From assembly GCA_039591655.1 (NCBI GenBank), contig JBDHDE010000055.1, forward strand, positions 1 through 16,851: 16,851 nt of DNA. The letters are read 5' to 3'. Made by a program: the position numbers and the translations under genes. This DNA is from Gemmatimonadota bacterium (GTDB lineage Bacteria > Gemmatimonadota > Gemmatimonadetes > Gemmatimonadales > GWC2-71-9). Under the pieces are notes generated by a model. It did no database searches, was not told where the DNA came from, and was given only the letters and a program-made list of their open reading frames with translations. Below are positions 2,213 to 16,851 of this stretch, in pieces (within the stretch, counting starts at the first letter, position 1; the number at the start of each line of letters is the position of its first letter).

Positions 2213-4639
2213 CTACTCCATCCCACGCTGGTTGAGGTAGGCTTGCAAGCGCTGGACGAATGCCTCCCGCGAGGCCTCGTCGAGGAAGAGATCGATCTGT
2301 CCGGCGGCTCGCTGCACTGCCATGAAATCCGTGATGAAGTCGTACAGGACGTTGGCAGCATCGAGCTCGGCGATGAGGGCGGTGTTCTGAGCGTCGAGCA
2401 GACTCAGGATGCCCGCGACGCCGCCCGCATACGCCGTCCGCACCAGCTCGTAGTTGCCGCGCGCCGCCTGGGCGGCATCCCGCGCCAGTTCGAGGCGCAC
2501 CCGAGACGACAGCAGGCGCTGCAGCGCATCACGCATCGCCTCCTCCACGCGCTGCTCCATCGAGCTGCGCTGATACTCGAGGCTGAAGAGGCTCTGTTGG
2601 GCCTGCTGCTTGGCCGCCGCACGCGAGCCGCTGCCAAACAAGAGGTAGCGTGCGCTGAGAGAGATCGTCCAACGCCACGGGTCGGCCTCCCCTTCCGGCA
2701 CCAGGCCGGGCGGCAGTCCCTCGCCCGAGAAGTCCGAGCCTGCCCCTCCCTCCGCCAGAGAGTTCGTGAGCCGCGCGTTGAGGAAGAACTCAGGCAGCCA
2801 GAAGGCACGGTTGGCCGCCGTGATCGCCCTGTCCTGAGCTCCCATGAGCGCGTCGATCGCCCTCAGCTCCGGTGACGTCTCGAGCGCGTCTGTGATCATG
2901 AAGTCCTCGAAGCCGCCGAAGCTCTGTGGGTCGTCGAGGAGCCTCGCCAGGGCATCCTCCGCCCACTGGATCACAGGCTCCTCGAACTCGCCTTCCGGGG
3001 TGTAGACCTCCTCGTCGAGCGGTCGGTACAGCAGGCGCTTGAGCCTGTTCTCGGCAATTGCCTTCGCCGCCACCGCACCGACCACCCCTTGTCGGTCCTT
3101 TGAGACCTGCGCCTCCCAGCGCAAGACCTCACCGGGAGTTGCCGCGCCCGTCTGGCGCCGCACTTCGGCCAGGTCCAGGTTCGTTCGGGTGAGCGAGAGG
3201 TTTTCCCGGCGAATCCGCTCATCGGTCTTGCGGCGCAAGACCGTCAGGTACGCATCAGCGGCCTCGAACGACACGTCCAGCCGCAGTGACGCGTAATCCT
3301 CCTCCCGAGCCCGCTGCAGCGACTGTTGGATGGTACGATCCGCCCAAGCCCGGTCGGCGAAGACCACCTGGGAGAGCCCCACCGAACCGCGTAGCAGCCG
3401 CTCGGGCTGTACGCCCAGGCTTCGGGCGGCCCGCTCCTCATCGATGATGCGGCCGGAAAAGGCGAGGTCCAACTGCGGCAGGAGCCGCGACGTCGCCAGC
3501 TTCACGTCCTGGGCCGCAGCCTGCAGCGCCCGATCGAACGACGCCAGGTCCTGGTTCTGCTCCAACGCCTCCTGCACCACGCCAAGCAGCGATTGCGGCT
3601 CCGGCGCGGCACCGGCCGCTTCATCGACGAGCAGTGCGTCGATGAGCATGGTCCACGACGGATATACCCCGATGGCGCGCGCCGTCTGCATGTTGACGAT
3701 CACGCGCTCCTGCTGCGAGAACACCACCTGCAGCTGCCCGGGCTGCTCGCCCTCGAGGATCTGTTGCACGGTGAGTGCCGTGAGACGGGCGAGCTGGAAC
3801 ATGAAGGAGTCTGGACGCCGCGCCAGCAGGATGCCCTTGCGCACCTCGGGCTCGCCGAACCAGGAGATGCTCGGGAGCCCCAGCTCGATCAGTCCACCCG
3901 CCAGCCGCTCGAACTCGGGTCCCGAGACTTGTGATAGCGGCAGCACGTACACCGCGTCCGCCTCGGCCGCCTCGATGGCGCCGAGGGCGGCTGCGACATC
4001 GTCACCCACCGGAATCACCACAGCCCGTGCGCCGGCTAGCGCCGCTCGCCCCTCGATGCGGTCGGCCATTCCCGGCAGCTCGGCGACGGCGTACTCACTG
4101 ACCAGGACTGCGAGGCGTTCGAAGTCGACCACCTCGGCCAGTGTTGCGATGTCTCGGTTCTCGGGTCGCGTCAAGTACACGAAGTTGGCCACCCCCGAGG
4201 CCGCTCCCGCCCGGGGGATTTCCTGCAGCGGTGGGTCCAGCACGAACGGCGCAACTACCGGCTTGCCCAGTCCCGGATGCTCGGCGGCCACCCGTCCGGC
4301 CAGGGGACCGATGGCCACGACTAGGTCAACGTCCGCTCGGCCAAGGAGCCGCTCGAGCGCCGCTCCGATCCCCGCGAGGGTATAGTCCCCTTCCATCCTC
4401 GCATGGGCGCCCATCTGCACCTCGAACCTGTTCTCGAGGAGCACCGACGTCTCCTGCTCGAGCTGATCGACGAGCTCGCCGTAGCGCATGGGCGGGCCGT
4501 CAGTCACGACGCCGATCGTCACAGGCCGTCGCTGCTGTGCGGCGGCCGTCGAGGGGACCGCCCCGGCTGCGAGCGCAACCAACGCCGCCGCAAGGAGGAT
4601 GCGGGCCGACGGAGCTTCAGGGCACACGGGAACTCCCAT
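2213..4639 (-). CDS. TolC-family outer membrane efflux protein with an N-terminal ABC-type substrate-binding-like domain (fusion)
   Basis: Signal peptide ending PSTAAA/QQ. About 300 aa alpha/beta domain (VDLVVAIGP, ADAVYVLP, QQILEGEQPGQL, VIVNMQTARAIGV). Then two OEP repeats (ALEQNQDL...LLPQLDL; SPELRA...FWLPEF; AYAGGVAGILSLLDAQ). ATG 4639 is preceded by a GAGG SD-like sequence. Confidence 0.88.
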   Translation of the reverse strand: MGVPVCPEAPSARILLAAALVALAAGAVPSTAAAQQRRPVTIGVVTDGPPMRYGELVDQLEQETSVLLENRFEVQMGAHARMEGDYTLAGIGAALERLLGRADVDLVVAIGPLAGRVAAEHPGLGKPVVAPFVLDPPLQEIPRAGAASGVANFVYLTRPENRDIATLAEVVDFERLAVLVSEYAVAELPGMADRIEGRAALAGARAVVIPVGDDVAAALGAIEAAEADAVYVLPLSQVSGPEFERLAGGLIELGLPSISWFGEPEVRKGILLARRPDSFMFQLARLTALTVQQILEGEQPGQLQVVFSQQERVIVNMQTARAIGVYPSWTMLIDALLVDEAAGAAPEPQSLLGVVQEALEQNQDLASFDRALQAAAQDVKLATSRLLPQLDLAFSGRIIDEERAARSLGVQPERLLRGSVGLSQVVFADRAWADRTIQQSLQRAREEDYASLRLDVSFEAADAYLTVLRRKTDERIRRENLSLTRTNLDLAEVRRQTGAATPGEVLRWEAQVSKDRQGVVGAVAAKAIAENRLKRLLYRPLDEEVYTPEGEFEEPVIQWAEDALARLLDDPQSFGGFEDFMITDALETSPELRAIDALMGAQDRAITAANRAFWLPEFFLNARLTNSLAEGGAGSDFSGEGLPPGLVPEGEADPWRWTISLSARYLLFGSGSRAAAKQQAQQSLFSLEYQRSSMEQRVEEAMRDALQRLLSSRVRLELARDAAQAARGNYELVRTAYAGGVAGILSLLDAQNTALIAELDAANVLYDFITDFMAVQRAAGQIDLFLDEASREAFVQRLQAYLNQRGME

Positions 4640-4796
4640 GGGACCTCTAGGTAGATGTCTGCCACTCGAAGAGCGAGCGGGTAAGATCACCCGGTCCGCC
4701 AGGGTCCGTCAACAGGCCACGATGGCCGTCATGGGCGGGTGGCCAAGCGGTCCCCATCCGGCGATCTTTGTGCGGCACACTTCAAGGAGCCTTGGC

Positions 4797-5425: not shown

Positions 5426-5458
5426 AGAAGGGCGAGCGCATTCAGCGCTCGCCCTTCT
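5426..5458. terminator. Perfect 14-bp hairpin between convergent genes; probable bidirectional intrinsic terminator
   Basis: AGAAGGGCGAGCGC-attca-GCGCTCGCCCTTCT lies between the stops at 5390 (+) and 5483 (-). The U-rich tails are short on both strands. Confidence 0.75.
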
Positions 5459-5482: not shown

Positions 5483-6889
5483 CTAAGTTCTCAGCTGCGC
5501 CAGGAAGTTGTCCAACAACCCGCTGGGGAAGGCGTCTCCCGCCTCCAGGGTTTCCCGGTGCCTCGCCAGCGCATCGGCCACTTCGTAGAAGTCCCGCGGC
5601 ACGCGTTCGGCTCGTGCTGCCCCTCCCTTGCGTGCCTCTATAGCCGACGTCCGCTTGAGGAGGTCGTCGAGCGCCTCCGTGTCGCGGCCCTTGATTATTG
5701 CCAGGGCAGCGCCGGCCAGGAGCAGGTGCGGCAGCGCCGAGCCGTCGGGGAGCCGGAACTCCACCGTCGCCGGCGTCACCACCCGGCCGGCCTCATCGGT
5801 GGTCACCACCGGCAGCCGGATGAGCGCCTGCCGGTCGTACTCGCCCCACACGATGGCGCTGGGTGCTTCCTTGGCCTGACGAATCCTCACGAAGGATCCC
5901 TCCACCCGGTTGCCGAACGCCATGAGGGCGCCGCCCAACTGCGCCAGTCCGCCGATTAGCCAGCGCGCGGGGTCAGAGAGTTCGCCCTCCCCGGTCTTGA
6001 CGTTCACGACCTCGCCGTCCTTCACGGGCGCGAGGTGGAAGTGGAGCCCGTTGCCGGCGTGGCCCTCGAGCATCATCGGTCCGGTGGCGCACCGCATGCC
6101 TTTGCGGTGCGCCAGGTTCCGCAGCACCCATTGGGTGAGGAGAATGCCGTCGGCCGCGACAGGTAGCGGCGCCAGGGCGAGCTCGATCTCATGCTGCTCC
6201 CAGATCACTCCCTCGGGCTCGCGGGCCTCGATGTAGCCCACCTCGCTGTGGCCGTACTTCACCGGCACGCCGAGGTCGGCCAGCAGGGCAAGGGCCTTGC
6301 GCCGCAGGCCCTCACCGAACACGAAGGGGGAGCTGGCGTGGTAGCCGCGATCGTCGGCGCCGTAGATGTCCGATTCGTCGCGCCGCTTGCCGAGGAAGTA
6401 CTCGACCTCCCCCAGCGCGTAGAGGTCCACTCCCGTCACCTCACGTAGCTGGGCGCACGCTCGCCGCAGGATGGTGTCGGGCGAGGCGGGCAGCGGGTTG
6501 CCCTCCGGGTCCGCATGGCCGCACATCAGCACTAGGGTGGGGAGTGACGCGAACGGGTCGAGGAACGCCGTGCGCACCCGGGGCCGCAGCACGATGTCCG
6601 ACTTGTCGGGGGGGATCCCCGCCCGAGGGAAGAGGCTCGAGCCGTCGGCACGCTCGCCACCGTCGATTATGTCCTTGAGTTGCGACGTCGAGCGCGGGAC
6701 GAAATCCAGCGTTTTGAGCCAGCCGTCACCGCCCACGTGCATCAGGCTCACGATCTGGACGCCGCGGCTGCGTACCAGGTCGACAACATCGTCCGCCGAC
6801 CAGGCAGAGCGCGGCTTGCCAAACTCGTCCTCGAGGCTCGTTCCCCGCGGAACCGGCGTCCGCGACCGCGGTTGCTGATCATCACTCAT
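5483..6889 (-). CDS. glnA: Glutamine synthetase family protein (GS type I-like)
   Basis: Motifs ADGSS, GEVEYF, RGYH, HSEVG, QHEIE, GNGLHFH, SFVR...EAP, DRQALIRLP and VEFRLPDG. ATG at 6889 overlaps the gatD TGA (ATGA). Confidence 0.88.
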   Translation of the reverse strand: MSDDQQPRSRTPVPRGTSLEDEFGKPRSAWSADDVVDLVRSRGVQIVSLMHVGGDGWLKTLDFVPRSTSQLKDIIDGGERADGSSLFPRAGIPPDKSDIVLRPRVRTAFLDPFASLPTLVLMCGHADPEGNPLPASPDTILRRACAQLREVTGVDLYALGEVEYFLGKRRDESDIYGADDRGYHASSPFVFGEGLRRKALALLADLGVPVKYGHSEVGYIEAREPEGVIWEQHEIELALAPLPVAADGILLTQWVLRNLAHRKGMRCATGPMMLEGHAGNGLHFHLAPVKDGEVVNVKTGEGELSDPARWLIGGLAQLGGALMAFGNRVEGSFVRIRQAKEAPSAIVWGEYDRQALIRLPVVTTDEAGRVVTPATVEFRLPDGSALPHLLLAGAALAIIKGRDTEALDDLLKRTSAIEARKGGAARAERVPRDFYEVADALARHRETLEAGDAFPSGLLDNFLAQLRT

Positions 6890-8277
6890 CGCCACACCCT
6901 CCCCAGGAACTCCTGGATCTCCGGCACACCGCCCTGAAAGATGAGATAGCCGTCGTGGGGCTCGCGCTCCGTTGTCTCACCGGCGATTGGCTCCATCATG
7001 AGCCGCTTCACCGCCTCCGGATCGTCGGGGTGCACCCCCAGAGCCCAACCCAGTTTGATGAACGCCACCTCGGGGAGCATGTTGGCCAGCGGCAGGACCC
7101 CCAGCTCCAGGATCTCCCGCCCCGTCTCGTACACGTGCATCTGCACGAAGCCCCACAATGTCTGGAGCGTCATGTACATGTGCACGCCCGCCGCATGCGC
7201 CCGCTCCAACGCAGGATAGATGATACGGTTCACGTGCCCCAGGCCCGTGCCCGCAATCACGATCCCCTTGTAGCCCTTCTCCACCAAGGCATCCACCACG
7301 TCGGCCTGCATACCCGGGTAGTAGTACAGCATCGTGACCCGCTCGTCGTAGGCCGCCTGCACGGTGACGTCGCGGTCGTCGCGGCGGTGGCGCCAGTCGT
7401 CCTTGAGCGGAACTATCTTCCCCTTCTCCACCATGGCCAGCGGAATGTCACCCAGCGTGCGGAAGGTGCTGCGGTAGGAGCTGTGCATCTTGCGCACTCG
7501 GGTGCCGCGGTGCAGCAGGTTGTAGCGGTCCGAGGTGGGGCCGAACATGCACACCACCACCTCGGCGATGGGCCCGTGGGCCGCCGTCCAGGTGGCGTTG
7601 ATCAGGTTCTGTGCGGCGTCGGAGGATGGCCGGTCGGAGGAGCGCTGGCTCCCCACCATCACGATGGGCACCGGCGGCCGCTGTACCATGAAGCTCAAGG
7701 CCGCCGCCGTGTGGTGCATGGTGTCGGTCCCATGGCCGATGACGACGCCGTGCCACCCGTCTCGGATCGCCTCCCCCACCTTCTCTGCCAGGATCAGGTA
7801 CTGCTCGGGCCCCATGTTCTCGCTGAACACCCCGAACAGCTTCTCGGTCTCCAGGTTGCAGATGTCGGCCAGCTCGGGCACCGAGCCGTACAGCTCCCCC
7901 GGGCTGAAGGCCGGGATCACCGCACCGGTGCGGTAGTCCAGCCGCGACGCGATGGTGCCGCCCGTGCCGAACAGCTTGACGCGGGGCTTCTCGGGATCCG
8001 TGGGGAACTCCTTCTCCGGGATCTTGTAGTGGGCCTCGCGGTATCCCGTCTCCTCGAGCTGGAGCACGGTGTCGTAGCGCAGGCCCACGTTGTAACCGCT
8101 CCCCAGCTTGAGCACGAGGTGCGCGTCGTCGCTGGTCTCGGAGCGCGGCAGGATGAGCCCCTCGAAGTCACCGCGCGTCGTGCGGGCCTTCACTTCGGAC
8201 CACACCTTCACGTCGAAGCGCTTCATGACCTCGAGCGTGGGGCCGCGGTAGCCTTTGTACTGGTCGTTGCCGCTCAC
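6886..8277 (-). CDS. gatD: Glu-tRNA(Gln) amidotransferase subunit D (glutaminase, asparaginase fold)
   Basis: GatD-specific N-terminal domain (FEGLILPR...LVLKLGSGYNVG), then GTGGTIASRLDYRTGAV, HGTDTM, GSQRSSDRPSSDA, RKMHSS, GTGLGHV and MLPEVAFIKLGWALG. The GTG start overlaps the gatE TGA (GTGA). Confidence 0.96.
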   Translation of the reverse strand: MSGNDQYKGYRGPTLEVMKRFDVKVWSEVKARTTRGDFEGLILPRSETSDDAHLVLKLGSGYNVGLRYDTVLQLEETGYREAHYKIPEKEFPTDPEKPRVKLFGTGGTIASRLDYRTGAVIPAFSPGELYGSVPELADICNLETEKLFGVFSENMGPEQYLILAEKVGEAIRDGWHGVVIGHGTDTMHHTAAALSFMVQRPPVPIVMVGSQRSSDRPSSDAAQNLINATWTAAHGPIAEVVVCMFGPTSDRYNLLHRGTRVRKMHSSYRSTFRTLGDIPLAMVEKGKIVPLKDDWRHRRDDRDVTVQAAYDERVTMLYYYPGMQADVVDALVEKGYKGIVIAGTGLGHVNRIIYPALERAHAAGVHMYMTLQTLWGFVQMHVYETGREILELGVLPLANMLPEVAFIKLGWALGVHPDDPEAVKRLMMEPIAGETTEREPHDGYLIFQGGVPEIQEFLGRVWR

Positions 8278-10379
8278 ACTACCGCCTCCGGCACCGCGTC
8301 CTCCAGTGCCTGCGCCAGCCGCTCTCGCACGACCCGCGGATCGAGCCGCCCCAGGAATCCCGGCATGACCGCCCCCATTGCCCAGCGCAGCACACCGTCC
8401 CGATCGGTGGTGGAGAGCGACTGCGCCTCCACGACCACGTCGGTGAGCCGTCGGGTAAGGGTGTCCTCGTCCTCGGCACGACGCCGGTGTGGGGCGAGGA
8501 TCTCTGCCACGGAGGCGTCGGGACGCTCGATCAGCCGATCGAGCAGCCGATCCAGCGCCTCGGGCCGGATCTCGCCCCCTTCGATAGCCCGGATCGCCGG
8601 GGCGAGCCGCGCCGGGTCGGGCATGGACGCGGGATCGGGCGTGAGCCGCCCTTGGCGCCGGTGGAACGGCAGCCGCTTCCGGAGCGCGTTGGCTACGCGA
8701 CGGGCGACGTCACCGGGCTTTGGCTCGAGCGCGTCGAACAGGTCGGCCCACGCGGCACGGGCCAGACAGCGCGCGGCTGTGTGGGCCAGCCCCATTCCCT
8801 CGTAGCGCGCTTCCCGTGCCCAGGGCGTCTCGGACAGCCGGTCGCGCACTTCCGCGACCACCGTATCGGCGATCGGTAGCGGTGGCGTGTCCGTATCGGG
8901 ATACATCCGGTCCGGCCCCGGCAGGATCCGCTCGAAGCCGTTGGTCCCGTCGTCGAACGCCTGGCGGGTCTCGGATGGCACGCCGGCGAGTGCGTCCTGC
9001 CCCCGAATCAGCACCTCGCGGGCGGCCGTAGCCGCGTCCATCTCCTGGCCCCACACCACGACCACCACGTCGCCGCGCTCGGCCTTGAGTTGCTTCCTGA
9101 GGTCGCGCCACTCCCGGGGGTCGAGCCCGTAATCGGTGATGTCAGAGTGGATCATGAACGGCCGGTGCTCCGGGCACGCGATCACCCGCACCCGGTCGGC
9201 GATCTCCCGCGCGAAGGTCACCCCCGGCTGGGTGCGGTGGGCCAGCAGCCCCCCGAAACCGGGCAGCCGCACCGCCGCGATGGTCTCACCCCGCTCCAGC
9301 GCGTCGCGGATGGGTTGGAAGTCGGAGTGGGCCAGCGCCGGGCCAGCGTCCGCGACCTTCGGTGAGACGTCCCAGGGAAGTCCCACGTCGGGGACTGCCA
9401 GCATGCTCGCCGTCACTCCGCGCCGCTCGAGCTCCGCCTTCACGCGCAACAGGTTGAGCTGGCGGAACGCCTCGGTATGAACCAAGAGCGGCAGAAACTT
9501 GTGGTTGTCCACCCCCTTGAGCTCCACGCGGCGGCCGCCGGCCACCGAAACGTTCGTGTCCTGCCGTGCCGCGCCGGGGCCACGACGCACCTTCCCCGTC
9601 GCCCGGGCGATCGCCGCCAGCAGCCGCGCTCCGGCCTGGAGCTCCCAGGGGGTGAGCAGGTCAGGCTCGGTCACCGTCTCGGTGAGGGGCATCCCCAGGC
9701 GGTCGGTCTTGAACGTGATGCGGTGCCCGATGTCGGTCACCTCGCGGCAGGCGTCCTCCTCCAGGGAGAGCTGCCGGATCCTGAGCTCCCGGTCGACCCC
9801 CAGCTCGGGGACCTTGAAGGGGATGACCCCCGTGAGCCCCACCATGGCCGTGCGCTGGAATCCCGTGGGGATCGAGCCGTCCAGGTACTGCTTGCGCATC
9901 ACGTGGAGCTCGGAGACCAGGTTGAGGTTACACAGCTGCGCGATCTCGATGGCCCCGCGGATGGCCTCCTCGTCGACCTCGAACGGCGGCGTGTCGTCCA
10001 TCTCGTAGGTGCACACCGTGCCCCGCTCCAGCCGGTACACGATCTCCTTCTTGGTCTTGAACTCCATGAGCGCGGTGCCGTCGTACTCCCCCAGCTCGCT
10101 CAGGGTGGGCCGCATGTGTCGCAGCACCTCGGCGTCGTACGTGGTGACCCGGTGCCCCGCGGGGCAGCGGCAGAACAGCTTCGAGCTGGTGAGGAGTTGC
10201 TGGTGGACCTCGAGACCGGACATGAACCCAACGGCCTCGTAGTCACCGGGCGTCATGTCGCCGAGGTCCTTGTCCCGGAAGTCCAGCGCCGGCTCCCGGC
10301 GGGGGTTCAGGTCGGCCGGGGGCCTGGGGCCGGCGGGCGGCTGCTCACCGGCGGCTGGCTCGTTTCGGTCGTTGCTCAT
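8274..10379 (-). CDS. gatE: Glu-tRNA(Gln) amidotransferase subunit E
   Basis: Motifs GLEVHQQL, KLFCRCP, MRPTLSELGEYD, MRKQYLDGSIPTGFQRT, LEEDACR, DRLGMPLTE, KVRRGPGAARQDTNVSV and VELKGV. It has an AspRS-like insertion domain (LPGFGGLL...IHSD), then VPSETR, LPGPDRMYPDTDTPP and a YqeY-like tail (MGAVM...GRLDP). These features identify GatE rather than GatB. Confidence 0.96.
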   Translation of the reverse strand: MSNDRNEPAAGEQPPAGPRPPADLNPRREPALDFRDKDLGDMTPGDYEAVGFMSGLEVHQQLLTSSKLFCRCPAGHRVTTYDAEVLRHMRPTLSELGEYDGTALMEFKTKKEIVYRLERGTVCTYEMDDTPPFEVDEEAIRGAIEIAQLCNLNLVSELHVMRKQYLDGSIPTGFQRTAMVGLTGVIPFKVPELGVDRELRIRQLSLEEDACREVTDIGHRITFKTDRLGMPLTETVTEPDLLTPWELQAGARLLAAIARATGKVRRGPGAARQDTNVSVAGGRRVELKGVDNHKFLPLLVHTEAFRQLNLLRVKAELERRGVTASMLAVPDVGLPWDVSPKVADAGPALAHSDFQPIRDALERGETIAAVRLPGFGGLLAHRTQPGVTFAREIADRVRVIACPEHRPFMIHSDITDYGLDPREWRDLRKQLKAERGDVVVVVWGQEMDAATAAREVLIRGQDALAGVPSETRQAFDDGTNGFERILPGPDRMYPDTDTPPLPIADTVVAEVRDRLSETPWAREARYEGMGLAHTAARCLARAAWADLFDALEPKPGDVARRVANALRKRLPFHRRQGRLTPDPASMPDPARLAPAIRAIEGGEIRPEALDRLLDRLIERPDASVAEILAPHRRRAEDEDTLTRRLTDVVVEAQSLSTTDRDGVLRWAMGAVMPGFLGRLDPRVVRERLAQALEDAVPEAVV

Positions 10380-10528
10380 GGGGCGTGAAAGATATCGTCA
10401 CAACGGCGCAGCGGCAGGCCGTGACACGGGTTGACCATCAAGGCACAGCTGACGAGGTTTCCCGGCTTGATCGCAGGTGCGAGAACAGACCGGAGTGTCT
10501 TCATCACCACGCGAGAGGAGTAATCACC

Positions 10529-13173: not shown

Positions 13174-13396
13174 GCTGCGGGGCCACCGAGTCATTGCCGT
13201 CGCCTTCTTCAAGTTGGGCACACGGCTGGCGCGGCTCACGGCACCGATTCTGTAGGGCATTCGCGCCAATATCGCCGAACAACTTGCCAGCGCCCGAGAA
13301 CGCTCCGTAGAGCGGCGTTTCGGTCCGGACCACGCCCCTCGTCGCTGCCACAATCCCCCGGATGACCCTCAGGCCGAGAACACACCCGATATGGGG

Positions 13397-13430
13397 TTGT
13401 GATATGACTAGTTATGACTATTATATGACC
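13397..13430 (+). promoter_or_regulatory. Putative TA promoter with overlapping operator repeats
   Basis: TTGTGA (13397-13402), a 16-nt spacer, then TATTAT (13419-13424). TATGAC occurs at 13403, 13413 and 13424. This is an AT-rich patch in otherwise GC-rich DNA. Confidence 0.6.
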
Positions 13431-13688
13431 ATGACGAAAGTCAGGATTGCGGAACTCAAGGCGAGGCTCAGCGAGTACCTGCGACGGGTTCGGCGGGGGC
13501 ACACTATCACCGTGCTGGATCGGGAAACGCCGGTCGCCCGCGTCGTTCCCTACACCGAGCCAGAGCCGCTCGGCGTGCGCGATCCTCTGGGACGACGGCG
13601 ACTTCAACAGGTACCGCTCCCACCACCCCTCAAACTGGACGTCGACGTCGTGGAGTTGCTCCTCGAGGAGCGGCAGGCCGAGAGGTGA
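13431..13688 (+). CDS. Type II antitoxin, Phd/YefM family (VapB partner)
   Basis: MTKVRIAELKARLSEYLRRVRRGHTITVLDRETPVARVVP is a typical Phd/YefM N-terminus, and the C-terminus is LLLEER. ATG 13425 and 13404 are alternative starts. Confidence 0.9.
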   Translation: MTKVRIAELKARLSEYLRRVRRGHTITVLDRETPVARVVPYTEPEPLGVRDPLGRRRLQQVPLPPPLKLDVDVVELLLEERQAER

Positions 13689-14101
13689 TCGCCTACCTCG
13701 ATTCGTCGGTGCTGCTGCGCATGGTGTTGGGCCAGCCACGCCGGCTGAAGGAGTGGTCGCGCATCAAGAGCGCGGTGTCGAGCGCCGTAGCCGAGGTCGA
13801 GTGCCTGCGAACCCTGGACCGACTTCGCCTGCGGGACGCCATTTCGGTTGAGGAACTCGCCCTGCGTCGAGAGGCCGTCTATCGCCTGACCGAGGAGATC
13901 GCCGTGGTAGAGCCAACGAGGACGGTGCTGCAGCGGGCTTCCCAACCACTCCCGACACCACTGGGCACCCTCGACGCGATCCACCTGTCCACCGCGATGC
14001 TCTGGCGCGAGACGAGGGCCCGGGATCTAGTGATGGCTACACACGACCAGGCGCTGGCGATTGCAGCTCGGGCCGTGGGCATTCCGGTGGTCGGCGCATG
14101 A
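13685..14101 (+). CDS. vapC: Type II toxin, VapC/PIN-domain ribonuclease
   Basis: PIN acidic residues in YLDSS, AEVE, TLDAIHLSTA and ATHD. The GTG start overlaps the antitoxin TGA. Confidence 0.92.
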   Translation: MIAYLDSSVLLRMVLGQPRRLKEWSRIKSAVSSAVAEVECLRTLDRLRLRDAISVEELALRREAVYRLTEEIAVVEPTRTVLQRASQPLPTPLGTLDAIHLSTAMLWRETRARDLVMATHDQALAIAARAVGIPVVGA

Positions 14102-14114
14102 AGCGCAGCTGAAT

Positions 14115-16412
14115 CTACTGCCTGCCCCGCCCCGCCAACTCCCCCTCCACGTACTCCTTCACCTGCCGCCCAATGGGGTTGTCGGGATGCAGCGCGATCA
14201 TGCGGTCGGCTAGCGTGAGCGCGCGGCGCAGCTCACCGCGCTTCACGTAGTGGTCGGCGAGGGCGAAGAGGAAGTCGATGTTCTCGGGCTCGACGTCGAG
14301 CGCCCGGCGCAGAGCGGCTTCCGCCTCCCGCATGCGCCCCGCCGACTGCAGCGCCAGTCCGTAGTTGTAGTGCACCCGGGCACGTTGCGGCATGCCTTCA
14401 GAAGCGCGTCCCAGGTAGTCGACCGCCTCGTCCAGGCGGTTCAACTCCGCCAGCAGCAGACCCAACGAATACGCTGCTTCGTATTGCTCGGGATACTCCG
14501 CTACGATCTCCCGGAGGAGCTGCTCGGCCTCCTCGTTCCGCCCCTGCGAGTTGAGCAGCACGGCGAGGTTCGCCTTGGCCGGGTAGAACAGATCGTCGAT
14601 CTCCACCGCCGCTCGGTAGTAGCGCTCCGCGCGCTCGGCGTCGCCCAGCCGTGTGTACAGGTTCCCCAGGTTGTGCCCCGCGAACGAGAAGTCGAGGGAG
14701 TACGCCATAGTGCGCTCGTACTCCGCGAGTGCCGCCGCGAGCTGCTCCTGCTGGTACACCTGGAGCATGCTGGGCGGCGCGTCGGCCAGGCGGGCGGCGG
14801 CCTCGATGCGCACCGCCTTCACCGGATCGAACAGCAGCGGCGAGACCAGCTCGACGTACCGCTCAGGTGTGGCCGCGCTCGCAGATGAGAGCGCAGTGTA
14901 GCGGATCAGTGCATCCTCGTCCTGCAGCGCCTGGTTGAATGCCTCGGTGCTCTCCTCGCCGGGGTAGCCGCTCAGGTAATCAAGGGCCGTGGCGCGGACG
15001 AGGGCCGGGTGCAGTGGGTCGCCCGCCATCCTGATCAGTTGATCCCGAGCCTCCAGCTGCCCCTGACGCGCCGCCGCGAACACCTGACCGTAGTGCGGTG
15101 TCCGCGCTTCGCCGTACCACTGGCGGTAGTAGCGCAGCGACCAGGCCAGCGGCTGGTCGTCGTGGCAGCCGCTCGCGGTGCAGGCGTTCGGCACGCCGAT
15201 CTCCTGCGACAGGTCCGGCCGCGGTAGCCGCATGCTGTGGTCGGCGCGCCAGTCCACCACCATGTACGGCTGCTCGACCATGTGGCACTTCACGCACAGG
15301 GCGCCGTCGCTGGGCTCGCCCTGATAAACCTTCTGGTGGAAATGGTGGTCGTAGCTGTCGTAGGTGTCGGCCCGGTGGCACTGCGTGCAGAGCGCGTTCC
15401 CCTCCTCGACGAGCTGCATGCTGTGCATGTCATGGCAGTCGCTGCAGCGCACGCCGTTCTTGTACATCTTGCTCTGCACGAACGACCCCCAGACGTAGAC
15501 CTCGTCGAGGATCTGCCCGTCGGCGTGGTACAGCCCCTCCCGCAACACGGCCGGCAGGACGTTGTCGAGCAGCCCGGGGCTGCGGTGGTCGTAGTCTCCC
15601 AGCTCGGTGCGCCGGGCGTGGCACGGGGCGCACAGCGCCACCTGCTCCGCATTGGTGACATCGGCCGTGGGGACCACGAGGTCGTAGTGCTCGACCTGCG
15701 GCCGGGCCATGGGCGGCAGCTCGGCCCACGCCACGTGGCGCGACCCCGGACCATGGCACGCCTCGCAGCTCACGTCGATCTCGGACCAGGTGGTGCTGAA
15801 GCTCCGCGACTCGGCGTCGTAGCCCTTGATCAGGTTGGTGGAGTGGCACTCGGCGCACATGCCGTTCCAGTTCTGGGCGCCGCGGGTCCAGTGCAGCCAG
15901 TCGTCGGGGGGGATATCCTGGCCGGGATAGAGGAAGAACCACTCCTCCCGCTCGGTATCCCACGCGACGGACAGCGCCTGCAACCGCCCACCCGGAAACG
16001 GAATCAGATACTGCTGCAGTGGCTCCCAGCCGAACGTGTGGGTGATCTCGTACTCCGCGCCTGCGCCGTCGGGGCCCTCGGCCCAGACGTAGTACTTGCC
16101 GTCCCGGCGGTAGAACCGCGTGGTGTCGCCGCGGTACACGAACACCGCATCGTCGAAGTCGCCCCGCACGGTGCTGTCGCTGGCCACCGTCATGGCGCGG
16201 TCGTGATCAGAGCCCTGCCAGGCTTCGTAGGCCGCCTCATGGCACGATATGCACTGCTCCCGGCCCACGAAGGTGGCCGGTTCCTCGACGACCGGTCCCC
16301 GCTCCGTCGCCAGCAACCGCTCCTTCACCAGATAGAGCGGCAGCGACAGCACGATCACCGCCGTGGCGACCACGCCGGCGGTGACCCAGCGGTCCAGGCC
16401 CTGGTCGCTCAC
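14115..16412 (-). CDS. Membrane-anchored multiheme c-type cytochrome with HEAT-like and TPR repeats
   Basis: N-terminal TM helix. Seven CxxCH motifs (CISCH, CAECH, CEACH, CAPCH, CSDCH, CTQCH, CVKCH) plus one CTASGCH. HEAT-like repeats (LVRATAL, LIRYTAL, AVRIEAA) and about five TPRs (NLGNLY, NLAVLL, SLGLLL, NYGLAL, ALADHY). The GTG start overlaps the Rieske TGA. Confidence 0.92.
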   Translation of the reverse strand: MSDQGLDRWVTAGVVATAVIVLSLPLYLVKERLLATERGPVVEEPATFVGREQCISCHEAAYEAWQGSDHDRAMTVASDSTVRGDFDDAVFVYRGDTTRFYRRDGKYYVWAEGPDGAGAEYEITHTFGWEPLQQYLIPFPGGRLQALSVAWDTEREEWFFLYPGQDIPPDDWLHWTRGAQNWNGMCAECHSTNLIKGYDAESRSFSTTWSEIDVSCEACHGPGSRHVAWAELPPMARPQVEHYDLVVPTADVTNAEQVALCAPCHARRTELGDYDHRSPGLLDNVLPAVLREGLYHADGQILDEVYVWGSFVQSKMYKNGVRCSDCHDMHSMQLVEEGNALCTQCHRADTYDSYDHHFHQKVYQGEPSDGALCVKCHMVEQPYMVVDWRADHSMRLPRPDLSQEIGVPNACTASGCHDDQPLAWSLRYYRQWYGEARTPHYGQVFAAARQGQLEARDQLIRMAGDPLHPALVRATALDYLSGYPGEESTEAFNQALQDEDALIRYTALSSASAATPERYVELVSPLLFDPVKAVRIEAAARLADAPPSMLQVYQQEQLAAALAEYERTMAYSLDFSFAGHNLGNLYTRLGDAERAERYYRAAVEIDDLFYPAKANLAVLLNSQGRNEEAEQLLREIVAEYPEQYEAAYSLGLLLAELNRLDEAVDYLGRASEGMPQRARVHYNYGLALQSAGRMREAEAALRRALDVEPENIDFLFALADHYVKRGELRRALTLADRMIALHPDNPIGRQVKEYVEGELAGRGRQ

Positions 16413-16851
16413 GCTCGAGTCACCTGCGCCGCCTCGAAGGCACGGCGCTTCCGCAGGTTCGCGGTGTTCACCTTCACGACACGGTTCTCGATGCGCACCT
16501 CGTAGAGATCCAGCGCCCGCGGCGCCGGCGGGTTCACCACGTCACCACGGATGTCGAACGCCGAGGAGTGGCAGGGGCAAACGAAGCGGTTGTCATCGGC
16601 CACCCAGGGCACCGTGCAGCCCAGGTGCGTGCACTCCCGGGAAACGGCGAGGAAGCCGCCGTCCTCGAGCCGCACGAGATAGAACCTCCCCTGCGGAAAC
16701 GCCGTCACGGAGCCCGGCTCGAACGCCCGCGTCGTCCGTCCGGGCCCGCGCCCGGCGGGGCCGGAGGAAGTCCACGAGGACCCACACGCCCTCGGCGACC
16801 ATGATGCCGAGTAGGCCGAGCCACGCCGTCCACAGGAAGCGGCGGCGCGGC
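16409..16851 (-). pseudogene. Rieske [2Fe-2S] protein of bc-complex type, 5'-truncated by the window edge and frameshifted near 16725 (pseudogene or assembly error)
   Basis: The downstream frame has ECTHLGC, CPCHSSAF and PPAPRAL. The Tat motif and TM helix (PRRRFLWTAWLGLLGIMVAEGVWVLVDFLRP) are in a different frame at 16850 to about 16727. Confidence 0.75.

What the first reader, a model, noticed from the sequence alone, without database searches (positions are those of the whole stretch)
5483..10379. gatE-gatD-glutamine synthetase as one translationally coupled three-gene operon
Seen: both junctions are 4-nt overlaps (GTGA at 8274-8277, ATGA at 6886-6889). The unit is bounded by a divergent intergenic region and a strong hairpin at 5426-5458. 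Established: GatD hydrolyses Gln or Asn to supply ammonia, and GS regenerates Gln from Glu and ammonia. Inference: this is a self-contained module in which a dedicated GS supplies or recycles the amide donor, possibly as a physical complex. Alternatively, the three enzymes serve a different amidation or glutamylation pathway. I do not know of this arrangement as a described system.
Basis: partly seen in the sequence, partly recalled or inferred. Interest (0 to 1): 0.8.

Follow-up and report, generated by a model that had tools for sequence, protein, structure and literature searches.

The report
Bacterial GatDE operon that replaces asnA
This bacterium carries the 'archaea-only' tRNA amidotransferase genes gatE-gatD overlapping an extra glutamine-synthetase-like gene, and in close relatives an asparagine synthetase gene sits at the same spot instead, so the three enzymes likely turn ammonia into glutamine and then, on a tRNA, into asparagine.

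Summary
In detail: gatE, gatD and a glutamine-synthetase (GS)-like gene are intact and joined by 4-nt overlaps; the gatD-GS overlap recurs in 27 of 31 linked loci. The genome (Gemmatimonadota by relatives) also has a canonical glnA, GlnRS and AsnRS, but no gatCAB or asnA was found (95% complete). The GS is not a dedicated partner: of 80 relatives, 31 follow gatD, 24 sit beside asnA, none both; of 80 distant gatE loci none carries it. Close relatives swap gatE-gatD for asnA between the same flanks, and the partner changes at least 11 times on the GS tree. No E. coli-type AsnB passed the cut-off in 42 GatE genomes, and this GatE branch lacks the tail motif implicated in rejecting Asp-tRNA(Asn). 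Best reading (0.45): GS supplies glutamine and bacterial GatDE makes asparagine on tRNA(Asn). Main rival (0.3): Glu-tRNA(Gln) proofreading. No complex could be tested. This scan has reported bacterial GatDE and this operon before on other DNA, including the asnA alternation; the in-place swap and genome-level census are tested here. No paper on bacterial GatDE was found.

The parts
8274..10379 (-). gatE, 701 aa, tRNA-dependent kinase/amidotransferase subunit of the bacterial-type branch
   Evidence: NF003107 473 bits (cut-off 456), TIGR00134 423 (320); GAD domain E 8e-8; H59/E207/E234 align to the Mg ligands H15/E157/E184 of 2D6F; tail GXXAXG motif absent
6886..8277 (-). gatD, 463 aa, asparaginase-type glutaminase subunit; GTG start
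   Evidence: TIGR02153 485 bits (cut-off 324), GatD_N domain; T108, T184, D185, K263 invariant in 20 of 20 aligned; aligned to 1ZQ1/2D6F
5483..6889 (-). GS-like gene, 468 aa; nearest named relatives are Bacteroidales 'glutamine synthetase family proteins' (34-39%); ends before the C-terminal stretch of canonical GlnA
   Evidence: Pfam Gln-synt_N/C; below GlnA cut-off; catalytic residues kept in 79-81 of 81; model pLDDT 83, GS fold TM about 0.76
8274..8277 (-). GTGA stop/start overlap gatE-gatD (SD GGAGG at 8285-8289)
   Evidence: 22 of 24 related junctions
6886..6889 (-). ATGA stop/start overlap gatD-GS (SD GGAGG at 6898-6902)
   Evidence: 27 of 31 related junctions
5426..5458 (.). 14-bp hairpin between the GS gene and a convergent beta-barrel gene; no U-tract
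10380..10528 (.). divergent intergenic region before gatE; no SD before the gatE ATG, no sigma-70 consensus found

Best explanation
The three overlapping genes likely form an amide-supply operon: the GS-like enzyme is predicted to make glutamine from glutamate and ammonia, GatD would release its amide nitrogen, and GatE would use it to turn aspartate on tRNA(Asn) into asparagine, doing the job that AsnA likely does in relatives carrying asnA at the same spot. Shown: gene structure, conserved coupling, intact active-site residues, the swap with asnA, and the gene census. Inferred: every activity, the Asn (or dual Asn/Gln) specificity of GatE, and mischarging of tRNA(Asn) by the single AspRS. 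The GS is an optional helper of GatDE, not a required subunit.
For: (1) Swap in place: in L042/L044, L039/L040 (flanks 87% identical) and L045/L044 the same flanking blocks enclose either gatE-gatD or asnA before the same GS; L069/L043 share both flanks more loosely. (2) Of 80 GS loci, 31 follow gatD, 24 adjoin asnA, 0 both; at least 11 changes of partner on the GS tree. (3) In the 22 genomes where the GS has neither neighbour: AsnA only 7, GatE only 10, both 0, neither 5 (one ambiguous) (Fisher p 0.005, overstated by kinship). 73 of 80 GS genomes hold one or the other, against GatE 14 of 201 and AsnA 9 of 201, both 0, in the phylum sample. (4) E. coli-type AsnB over cut-off: 0 of 42 GatE genomes, 10 of 20 genomes lacking GatB, GatE and AsnA. 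(5) GlnRS in 11 of 14 GatE genomes in full and 2 more cut at contig ends, against 77 of 187 others, so Gln-tRNA needs no amidotransferase there. (6) G000: AsnRS, no GatB, GatA or AsnA found; tRNA(Asn) has U1-A72. (7) The GatE tail motif GXXAXG, implicated in rejecting Asp-tRNA(Asn) (PMC2811023), is in 0 of 34 proteins of this branch against 12 of 67 archaeal-like ones; RKQY matches the RK(N/H)Y of dual-specific GatB where the solved GatEs have V. (8) Precedent for the logic: B. bacteriovorus has GlnRS, AsnRS, GatCAB, no AsnA/AsnB, and its lone AspRS mischarges tRNA(Asn) (PMC4206432).
Against: GatE keeps the GAD insertion, which is predicted to block binding of archaeal GatDE to ND-AspRS (no association detected in PMC2943598). 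gatE-gatD directly precedes glnS in G059 and G060, with gltX divergent in G060, and glnS lies about 7.5 kb away in this genus, which points to tRNA(Gln). G000 and 21 of 22 GatE-only genomes hold AsnB-like paralogues below the cut-off that might make Asn; G263 has a 415-bit partial AsnB. 6 of 31 gatD-linked genomes also have AsnA, and locus L208 reads gatE-gatD-asnA, which fits AsnA as donor supplier equally well. 20 of the 42 GatE genomes also have GatB. 7 of the 10 AsnB genomes are one genus. The tail motif is present in only 18% of archaeal-like sequences, so its loss is weak evidence. AspRS has Leu at the position recalled as His in non-discriminating enzymes, though GatB-only genomes share this. 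G211 has gatD-GS and no GatE hit. All genomes are bins.
Confidence: 0.45

Rival explanations
1. GatDE keeps its archaeal job: it repairs Glu-tRNA(Gln) made by a relaxed GluRS alongside GlnRS, and the GS (or AsnA) only supplies the amide donor.
For: Passes GatE and GatD equivalog cut-offs; GAD insertion kept; gatED-glnS and gltX neighbours; GluRS anticodon Arg is also in 5 of 5 GlnRS-lacking genomes, so G000 GluRS may be relaxed; GatB not found in 22 GatE genomes; a different, canonical-scoring GlnA precedes gatE in 5 of 80 distant loci and asnA follows gatD in 1.
Against: [quoted passage not shown]
Confidence: 0.3
2. GatDE has become a tRNA-independent, glutamine-dependent asparagine synthetase acting on free aspartate, a direct analogue of AsnB.
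For: Needs no mischarging AspRS; fits the asnA swap and AsnB absence; an Asp/Glu racemase lies between gatE and gatD in G060 and a Glu/Asp symporter follows gatD in G116.
Against: Helical and tail (YqeY-like) tRNA-binding domains are kept; archaeal GatD is inactive without aminoacyl-tRNA; no precedent found.
Confidence: 0.1
3. The GS-like protein is not a glutamine-forming enzyme in vivo; it is a gamma-glutamyl ligase or ammonia scavenger of an Asn/Gln turnover module.
For: Far below the GlnA cut-off; Ala or Pro at the position of the conserved Asn before GxGxH in 81 of 81, and no canonical C-terminus; recalled, not read (not held): the Bacteroidota-type GSI of Prevotella ruminicola showed transferase but no biosynthetic activity; GSIII-2 is its main assimilating enzyme (PMC5552732). 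That this GSI belongs to the subfamily is recalled, not tested.
Against: The ammonium-site and flap residues (D82, Y183, E341) and all metal and substrate ligands are kept, unlike amine ligases (recalled); its two partners both use ammonia or amides.
Confidence: 0.1
4. The adjacency is incidental.
For: 22 of 80 GS loci have neither neighbour; 0 of 80 distant gatE loci carry this GS.
Against: Conserved overlaps, linkage in four lineages, a second GS type linked independently upstream of gatE.
Confidence: 0.05

Closest known systems
Archaeal GatDE Glu-tRNA(Gln) amidotransferase (M. thermautotrophicus 2D6F, P. abyssi 1ZQ1)
   Same: Both subunits, domain order, Mg ligands, glutaminase triad, GAD insertion
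   Different: In a bacterium with GlnRS and U1-A72 tRNAs; separate branch of the GatE tree (support 0.986); tail motif lost; coupled to a GS-like gene; exchangeable with asnA
GatCAB + non-discriminating AspRS as asparagine route (B. bacteriovorus, S. aureus; PMC4206432)
   Same: Same genomic logic: GlnRS and AsnRS present, AsnA and E. coli-type AsnB not found, tRNA(Asn) U1-A72
   Different: The amidotransferase is GatDE, never shown to act on Asp-tRNA(Asn)
Type I glutamine synthetase (GlnA) and the Bacteroidales 'glutamine synthetase family protein'
   Same: Fold (TM about 0.76) and catalytic residues; 34-39% to Bacteroidales proteins
   Different: About 25% to solved GlnA; Asn-to-Ala change; shorter C-terminus, so likely a single ring (inference); the two Bacteroidales copies seen have neither gatD nor asnA beside them
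AsnA aspartate-ammonia ligase
   Same: Occupies the same slot before the same GS
   Different: Unrelated protein using free Asp and ammonia

Membership tests
GatDE amidotransferase | GatE and GatD family profiles over curated cut-offs | tested here: met
GatDE amidotransferase | GatE Mg ligands His15/Glu157/Glu184 | tested here: met
   H59/E207/E234
GatDE amidotransferase | GatD Thr nucleophile and Thr-Lys-Asp triad, GatD_N domain | tested here: met
   (residue numbers of the archaeal enzyme recalled)
GatDE amidotransferase | GatE-specific GAD insertion | tested here: met
   PF02938 E 8e-8
Archaeal-type Glu-AdT function | Tail GXXAXG motif | tested here: not met
   0 of 34 in this branch, 0 of 120 close homologues; only 12 of 67 archaeal-like have it strictly
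Archaeal-type Glu-AdT function | Host tRNA(Gln) with A1-U72 | tested here: not met
   U1-A72 in G000 and 4 of 4 genes from 3 of 5 relatives searched
Archaeal-type Glu-AdT function | Host lacks GlnRS | tested here: not met
Archaeal-type Glu-AdT function | Non-discriminating GluRS | tested here: inconclusive
   Arg kept also in GlnRS-lacking genomes
tRNA-dependent Asn synthesis (Asp-AdT) | tRNA(Asn) U1-A72; AsnA and housekeeping AsnB absent | tested here: met
   assembly 95% complete; one AsnB-like paralogue present
tRNA-dependent Asn synthesis (Asp-AdT) | Non-discriminating AspRS | tested here: inconclusive
   recalled His/Gly motif absent in all 29 AspRS seen, GatB-only genomes included
tRNA-dependent Asn synthesis (Asp-AdT) | Amidation of Asp-tRNA(Asn) | not testable with these tools
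   needs an assay
Type I glutamine synthetase (GlnA) | TIGR00653 over cut-off | tested here: not met
   152 vs 429 bits
Type I glutamine synthetase (GlnA) | GS fold and metal, ATP, glutamate and ammonium residues | tested here: met
   one conserved Asn replaced by Ala (roles of residues recalled)
Type I glutamine synthetase (GlnA) | Gln biosynthetic activity | not testable with these tools
   needs an assay
GS-GatDE physical complex | Fusion or predicted interface | not tested

The most novel reading that the evidence does not exclude
A widespread bacterial branch of GatDE has switched substrate and is a fourth route to asparagine (after AsnA, AsnB and GatCAB), acting on Asp-tRNA(Asn) or even free aspartate; it trades places with asnA as a cassette in front of an uncharacterised GS subfamily that feeds it glutamine.
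Probability: 0.5. Interest if true: 0.85.

Novelty: new variant of a known kind. Interest (0 to 1): 0.62.

Why it matters
Reviews to 2022 call GatDE archaea-only and Gln-specific (PMC2811023, PMC9499178). A large bacterial branch living beside GlnRS has no assigned job. The swap with asnA gives a specific, cheap test (rescue of an Asn auxotroph; Asp- versus Glu-tRNA assay). If GatDE makes Asn, it changes Asn prototrophy calls in many uncultured lineages, shows that amidotransferase specificity can flip despite the GAD insertion, and gives a context for an unstudied GS subfamily.

Tried and rejected
GS as sole housekeeping enzyme: rejected, canonical glnA on C20. GS as obligatory GatDE partner: rejected. 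GatDE as the only Gln-tRNA route: G070 and G176 seemed to lack GlnRS but hold pieces at contig ends; only G149 remains unresolved. AspRS and GluRS specificity motifs were uninformative. Neighbour clustering missed asnA because shadow frames merged clusters; a direct search found it. Clustering of distant gatE neighbours showed no shared pathway gene. No fusion found. Complex prediction of GatD with the GS was not available, and cluster-member names could not be looked up, so the taxonomy of the GatE representatives is not known; 'bacterial branch' rests on record titles, source names and Atlas clusters. Paper searches were swamped by unrelated words and show nothing.
Full report
OBSERVATION. 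The three frames and both 4-nt overlaps are as described, with GGAGG upstream of the gatD and GS starts. The hairpin at 5426-5458 is a 14-bp stem (z -4.07) without a U-tract, between convergent genes. In related loci the overlap is kept at 22 of 24 gatE-gatD junctions and 27 of 31 gatD-GS junctions. Co-transcription is inferred, not shown.

THE PROTEINS. GatE and GatD pass their equivalog cut-offs. The Mg ligands named in PMC2330236 align to H59, E207 and E234; the GatD Thr and Thr-Lys-Asp residues are invariant in 20 of 20 aligned. On a tree of 118 full-length representatives (of 150 returned) the query lies in a diverse branch apart from the archaeal-like sequences (support 0.986); the taxa of these representatives are not known, but source names and Atlas clusters of this branch are bacterial. 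The third protein has the GS fold (model pLDDT 83; TM about 0.76, 21-26% identity to solved GS), scores far below the GlnA cut-off, and is closest among named records to Bacteroidales 'glutamine synthetase family proteins' (34-39%). Catalytic positions are kept in 79-81 of 81 sequences; the Asn before GxGxH is Ala or Pro in all, and the canonical C-terminus is missing (residue roles recalled).

THE HOST. Relatives are Gemmatimonadota. G000 (95.2% complete) has a canonical glnA, GlnRS, GluRS, AspRS and AsnRS; GatB, amidase-family GatA and AsnA were not found. One AsnB-like gene sits beside an ArnT-like transferase and is below the E. coli AsnB cut-off. tRNA(Gln) and tRNA(Asn) both have U1-A72.

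IS THE GS DEDICATED? No. Of the best 80 of 147 GS relatives, 31 directly follow gatD, 24 adjoin asnA (18 tandem, 6 divergent; some partial), 22 have neither, 3 have no room, none has both. In a 201-genome phylum sample 14 have GatE and 5 this GS; 4 have the operon. Of 80 more distant gatE loci from metagenomes (best 80 of 570; many short), 69 show gatD, none this GS, 5 a different GS upstream (two checked pass the GlnA cut-off) and 1 asnA behind gatD. So GS linkage is optional and arose at least twice.

THE SWAP WITH asnA. In L042/L044, L039/L040 and L045/L044 the same flanking blocks enclose either gatE-gatD or asnA before the same GS; L069/L043 share both flanks more loosely; three further pairs share downstream blocks only. 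The partner changes at least 11 times on the GS tree. At genome level (all 80 genomes) 42 have GatE or gatD, 37 AsnA, 6 both, 73 at least one; these groups were partly chosen by adjacency. In the 22 genomes not so chosen: AsnA only 7, GatE only 10, both 0, neither 5, one of them ambiguous. The phylum background is GatE 14, AsnA 9, both 0 of 201. In 79 hand-picked genomes E. coli-type AsnB passed the cut-off in 0 of 42 with GatE, 10 of 20 lacking GatB, GatE and AsnA (7 from one genus), and 1 of 17 with GatB only. GlnRS is in 11 of 14 GatE genomes in full, 2 more in part, against 77 of 187 others. Fisher values overstate, since kin are not independent. The 201-genome tallies include four genomes flagged unpublished (G157, G182, G057, G097); no other claim rests on them.

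MECHANISM. Exchange in place with AsnA, and avoidance of AsnA and AsnB, is the pattern expected if GatDE supplies asparagine. GatCAB is accepted as such a substitute (PMC9026213; PMC4206432). Two sequence features lean the same way: the tail motif implicated in rejecting Asp-tRNA(Asn) is absent in 0 of 34 of this branch (12 of 67 strict, 32 of 67 loose in archaeal-like ones), and RKQY resembles GatB; both may be ancestral states. The GS would then turn ammonia into glutamine for GatD, so that either version of the operon yields both amide amino acids from ammonia. Against: the GAD insertion is kept and archaeal GatDE did not bind ND-AspRS; gatED adjoins glnS in G059 and G060 and glnS lies about 7.5 kb off here, since contig C83 overlaps the window start by 91 nt; 21 of 22 GatE-only genomes have AsnB-like paralogues; 6 genomes and locus L208 hold both gatD and asnA; 20 of 42 also have GatB; G211 has gatD-GS without a GatE hit; synthetase motifs were uninformative. 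Hence 0.45 for Asn on tRNA, 0.3 for Glu-tRNA(Gln) repair, 0.1 for free Asp, 0.1 for a non-biosynthetic GS, 0.05 for chance.

LITERATURE. Searches (40 of 49 listed) showed no paper on bacterial GatDE or this operon; two searches were swamped and show nothing; the library lacks most subscription papers. Read as passages: PMC2330236, PMC2811023, PMC2943598, PMC9499178, PMC9026213, PMC5552732; passages plus Discussion: PMC4206432. No supplements were read. The P. ruminicola GSI activity is recalled only. Databases already name these bacterial proteins GatE.

VERDICT. Real, conserved operon; a new variant of a known kind; seen before in this scan (12 findings match). The added value is a tested gene-displacement signal that makes the job of bacterial GatDE directly testable. 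Interest 0.62.

Noticed in passing
G000:C83 (L174:6460-10134, -), continuing left of window position 1: An AcrB-like efflux gene runs in frame into glnS as one 1225-aa ORF; the pump's last part lies in another frame, which looks like a break or assembly collapse. C83 overlaps the window start by 91 nt.
   Followed up: partly
L115:8113-8874 (G060): An Asp/Glu racemase gene lies between gatE and gatD, followed by glnS, with gltX divergent.
   Followed up: partly
L053 (G211, chromosome-level record): gatD-GS present but no GatE or GatB hit in the genome.
   Followed up: no
L208:5420-9574: gatE-gatD-asnA: AsnA in the slot that the GS takes here.
   Followed up: partly
L206, L209, L224, L237, L262: A canonical-scoring glnA directly upstream of gatE-gatD: a second, independent GS link.
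   Followed up: partly
window 6886-8277: GatD is unusually conserved (77-95% across four lineages) compared with GatE (60-86%) in the same loci.
   Followed up: no
P0176: A 969-aa record with both GatE and GatD domains: a fusion or a gene-calling artefact.
   Followed up: no
window 13362-14101 (+): Phd-family antitoxin overlapping a 138-aa PIN-like partner (partner by eye; no NCBIfam hit).
   Followed up: no
window 2213-4690 (-): An 825-aa TolC-type outer-membrane protein with a long N-terminal extension, upstream of an RND adaptor.
   Followed up: no
window 14115-16708 (-): Multiheme cytochrome with TPR tail behind a small Rieske-like gene (Rieske by eye).
   Followed up: no
G059:C10:33552-35358: Two near-identical tRNA-Gln genes 1.7 kb apart, both called UUG; one shows a different anticodon-loop flank.
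   Followed up: no
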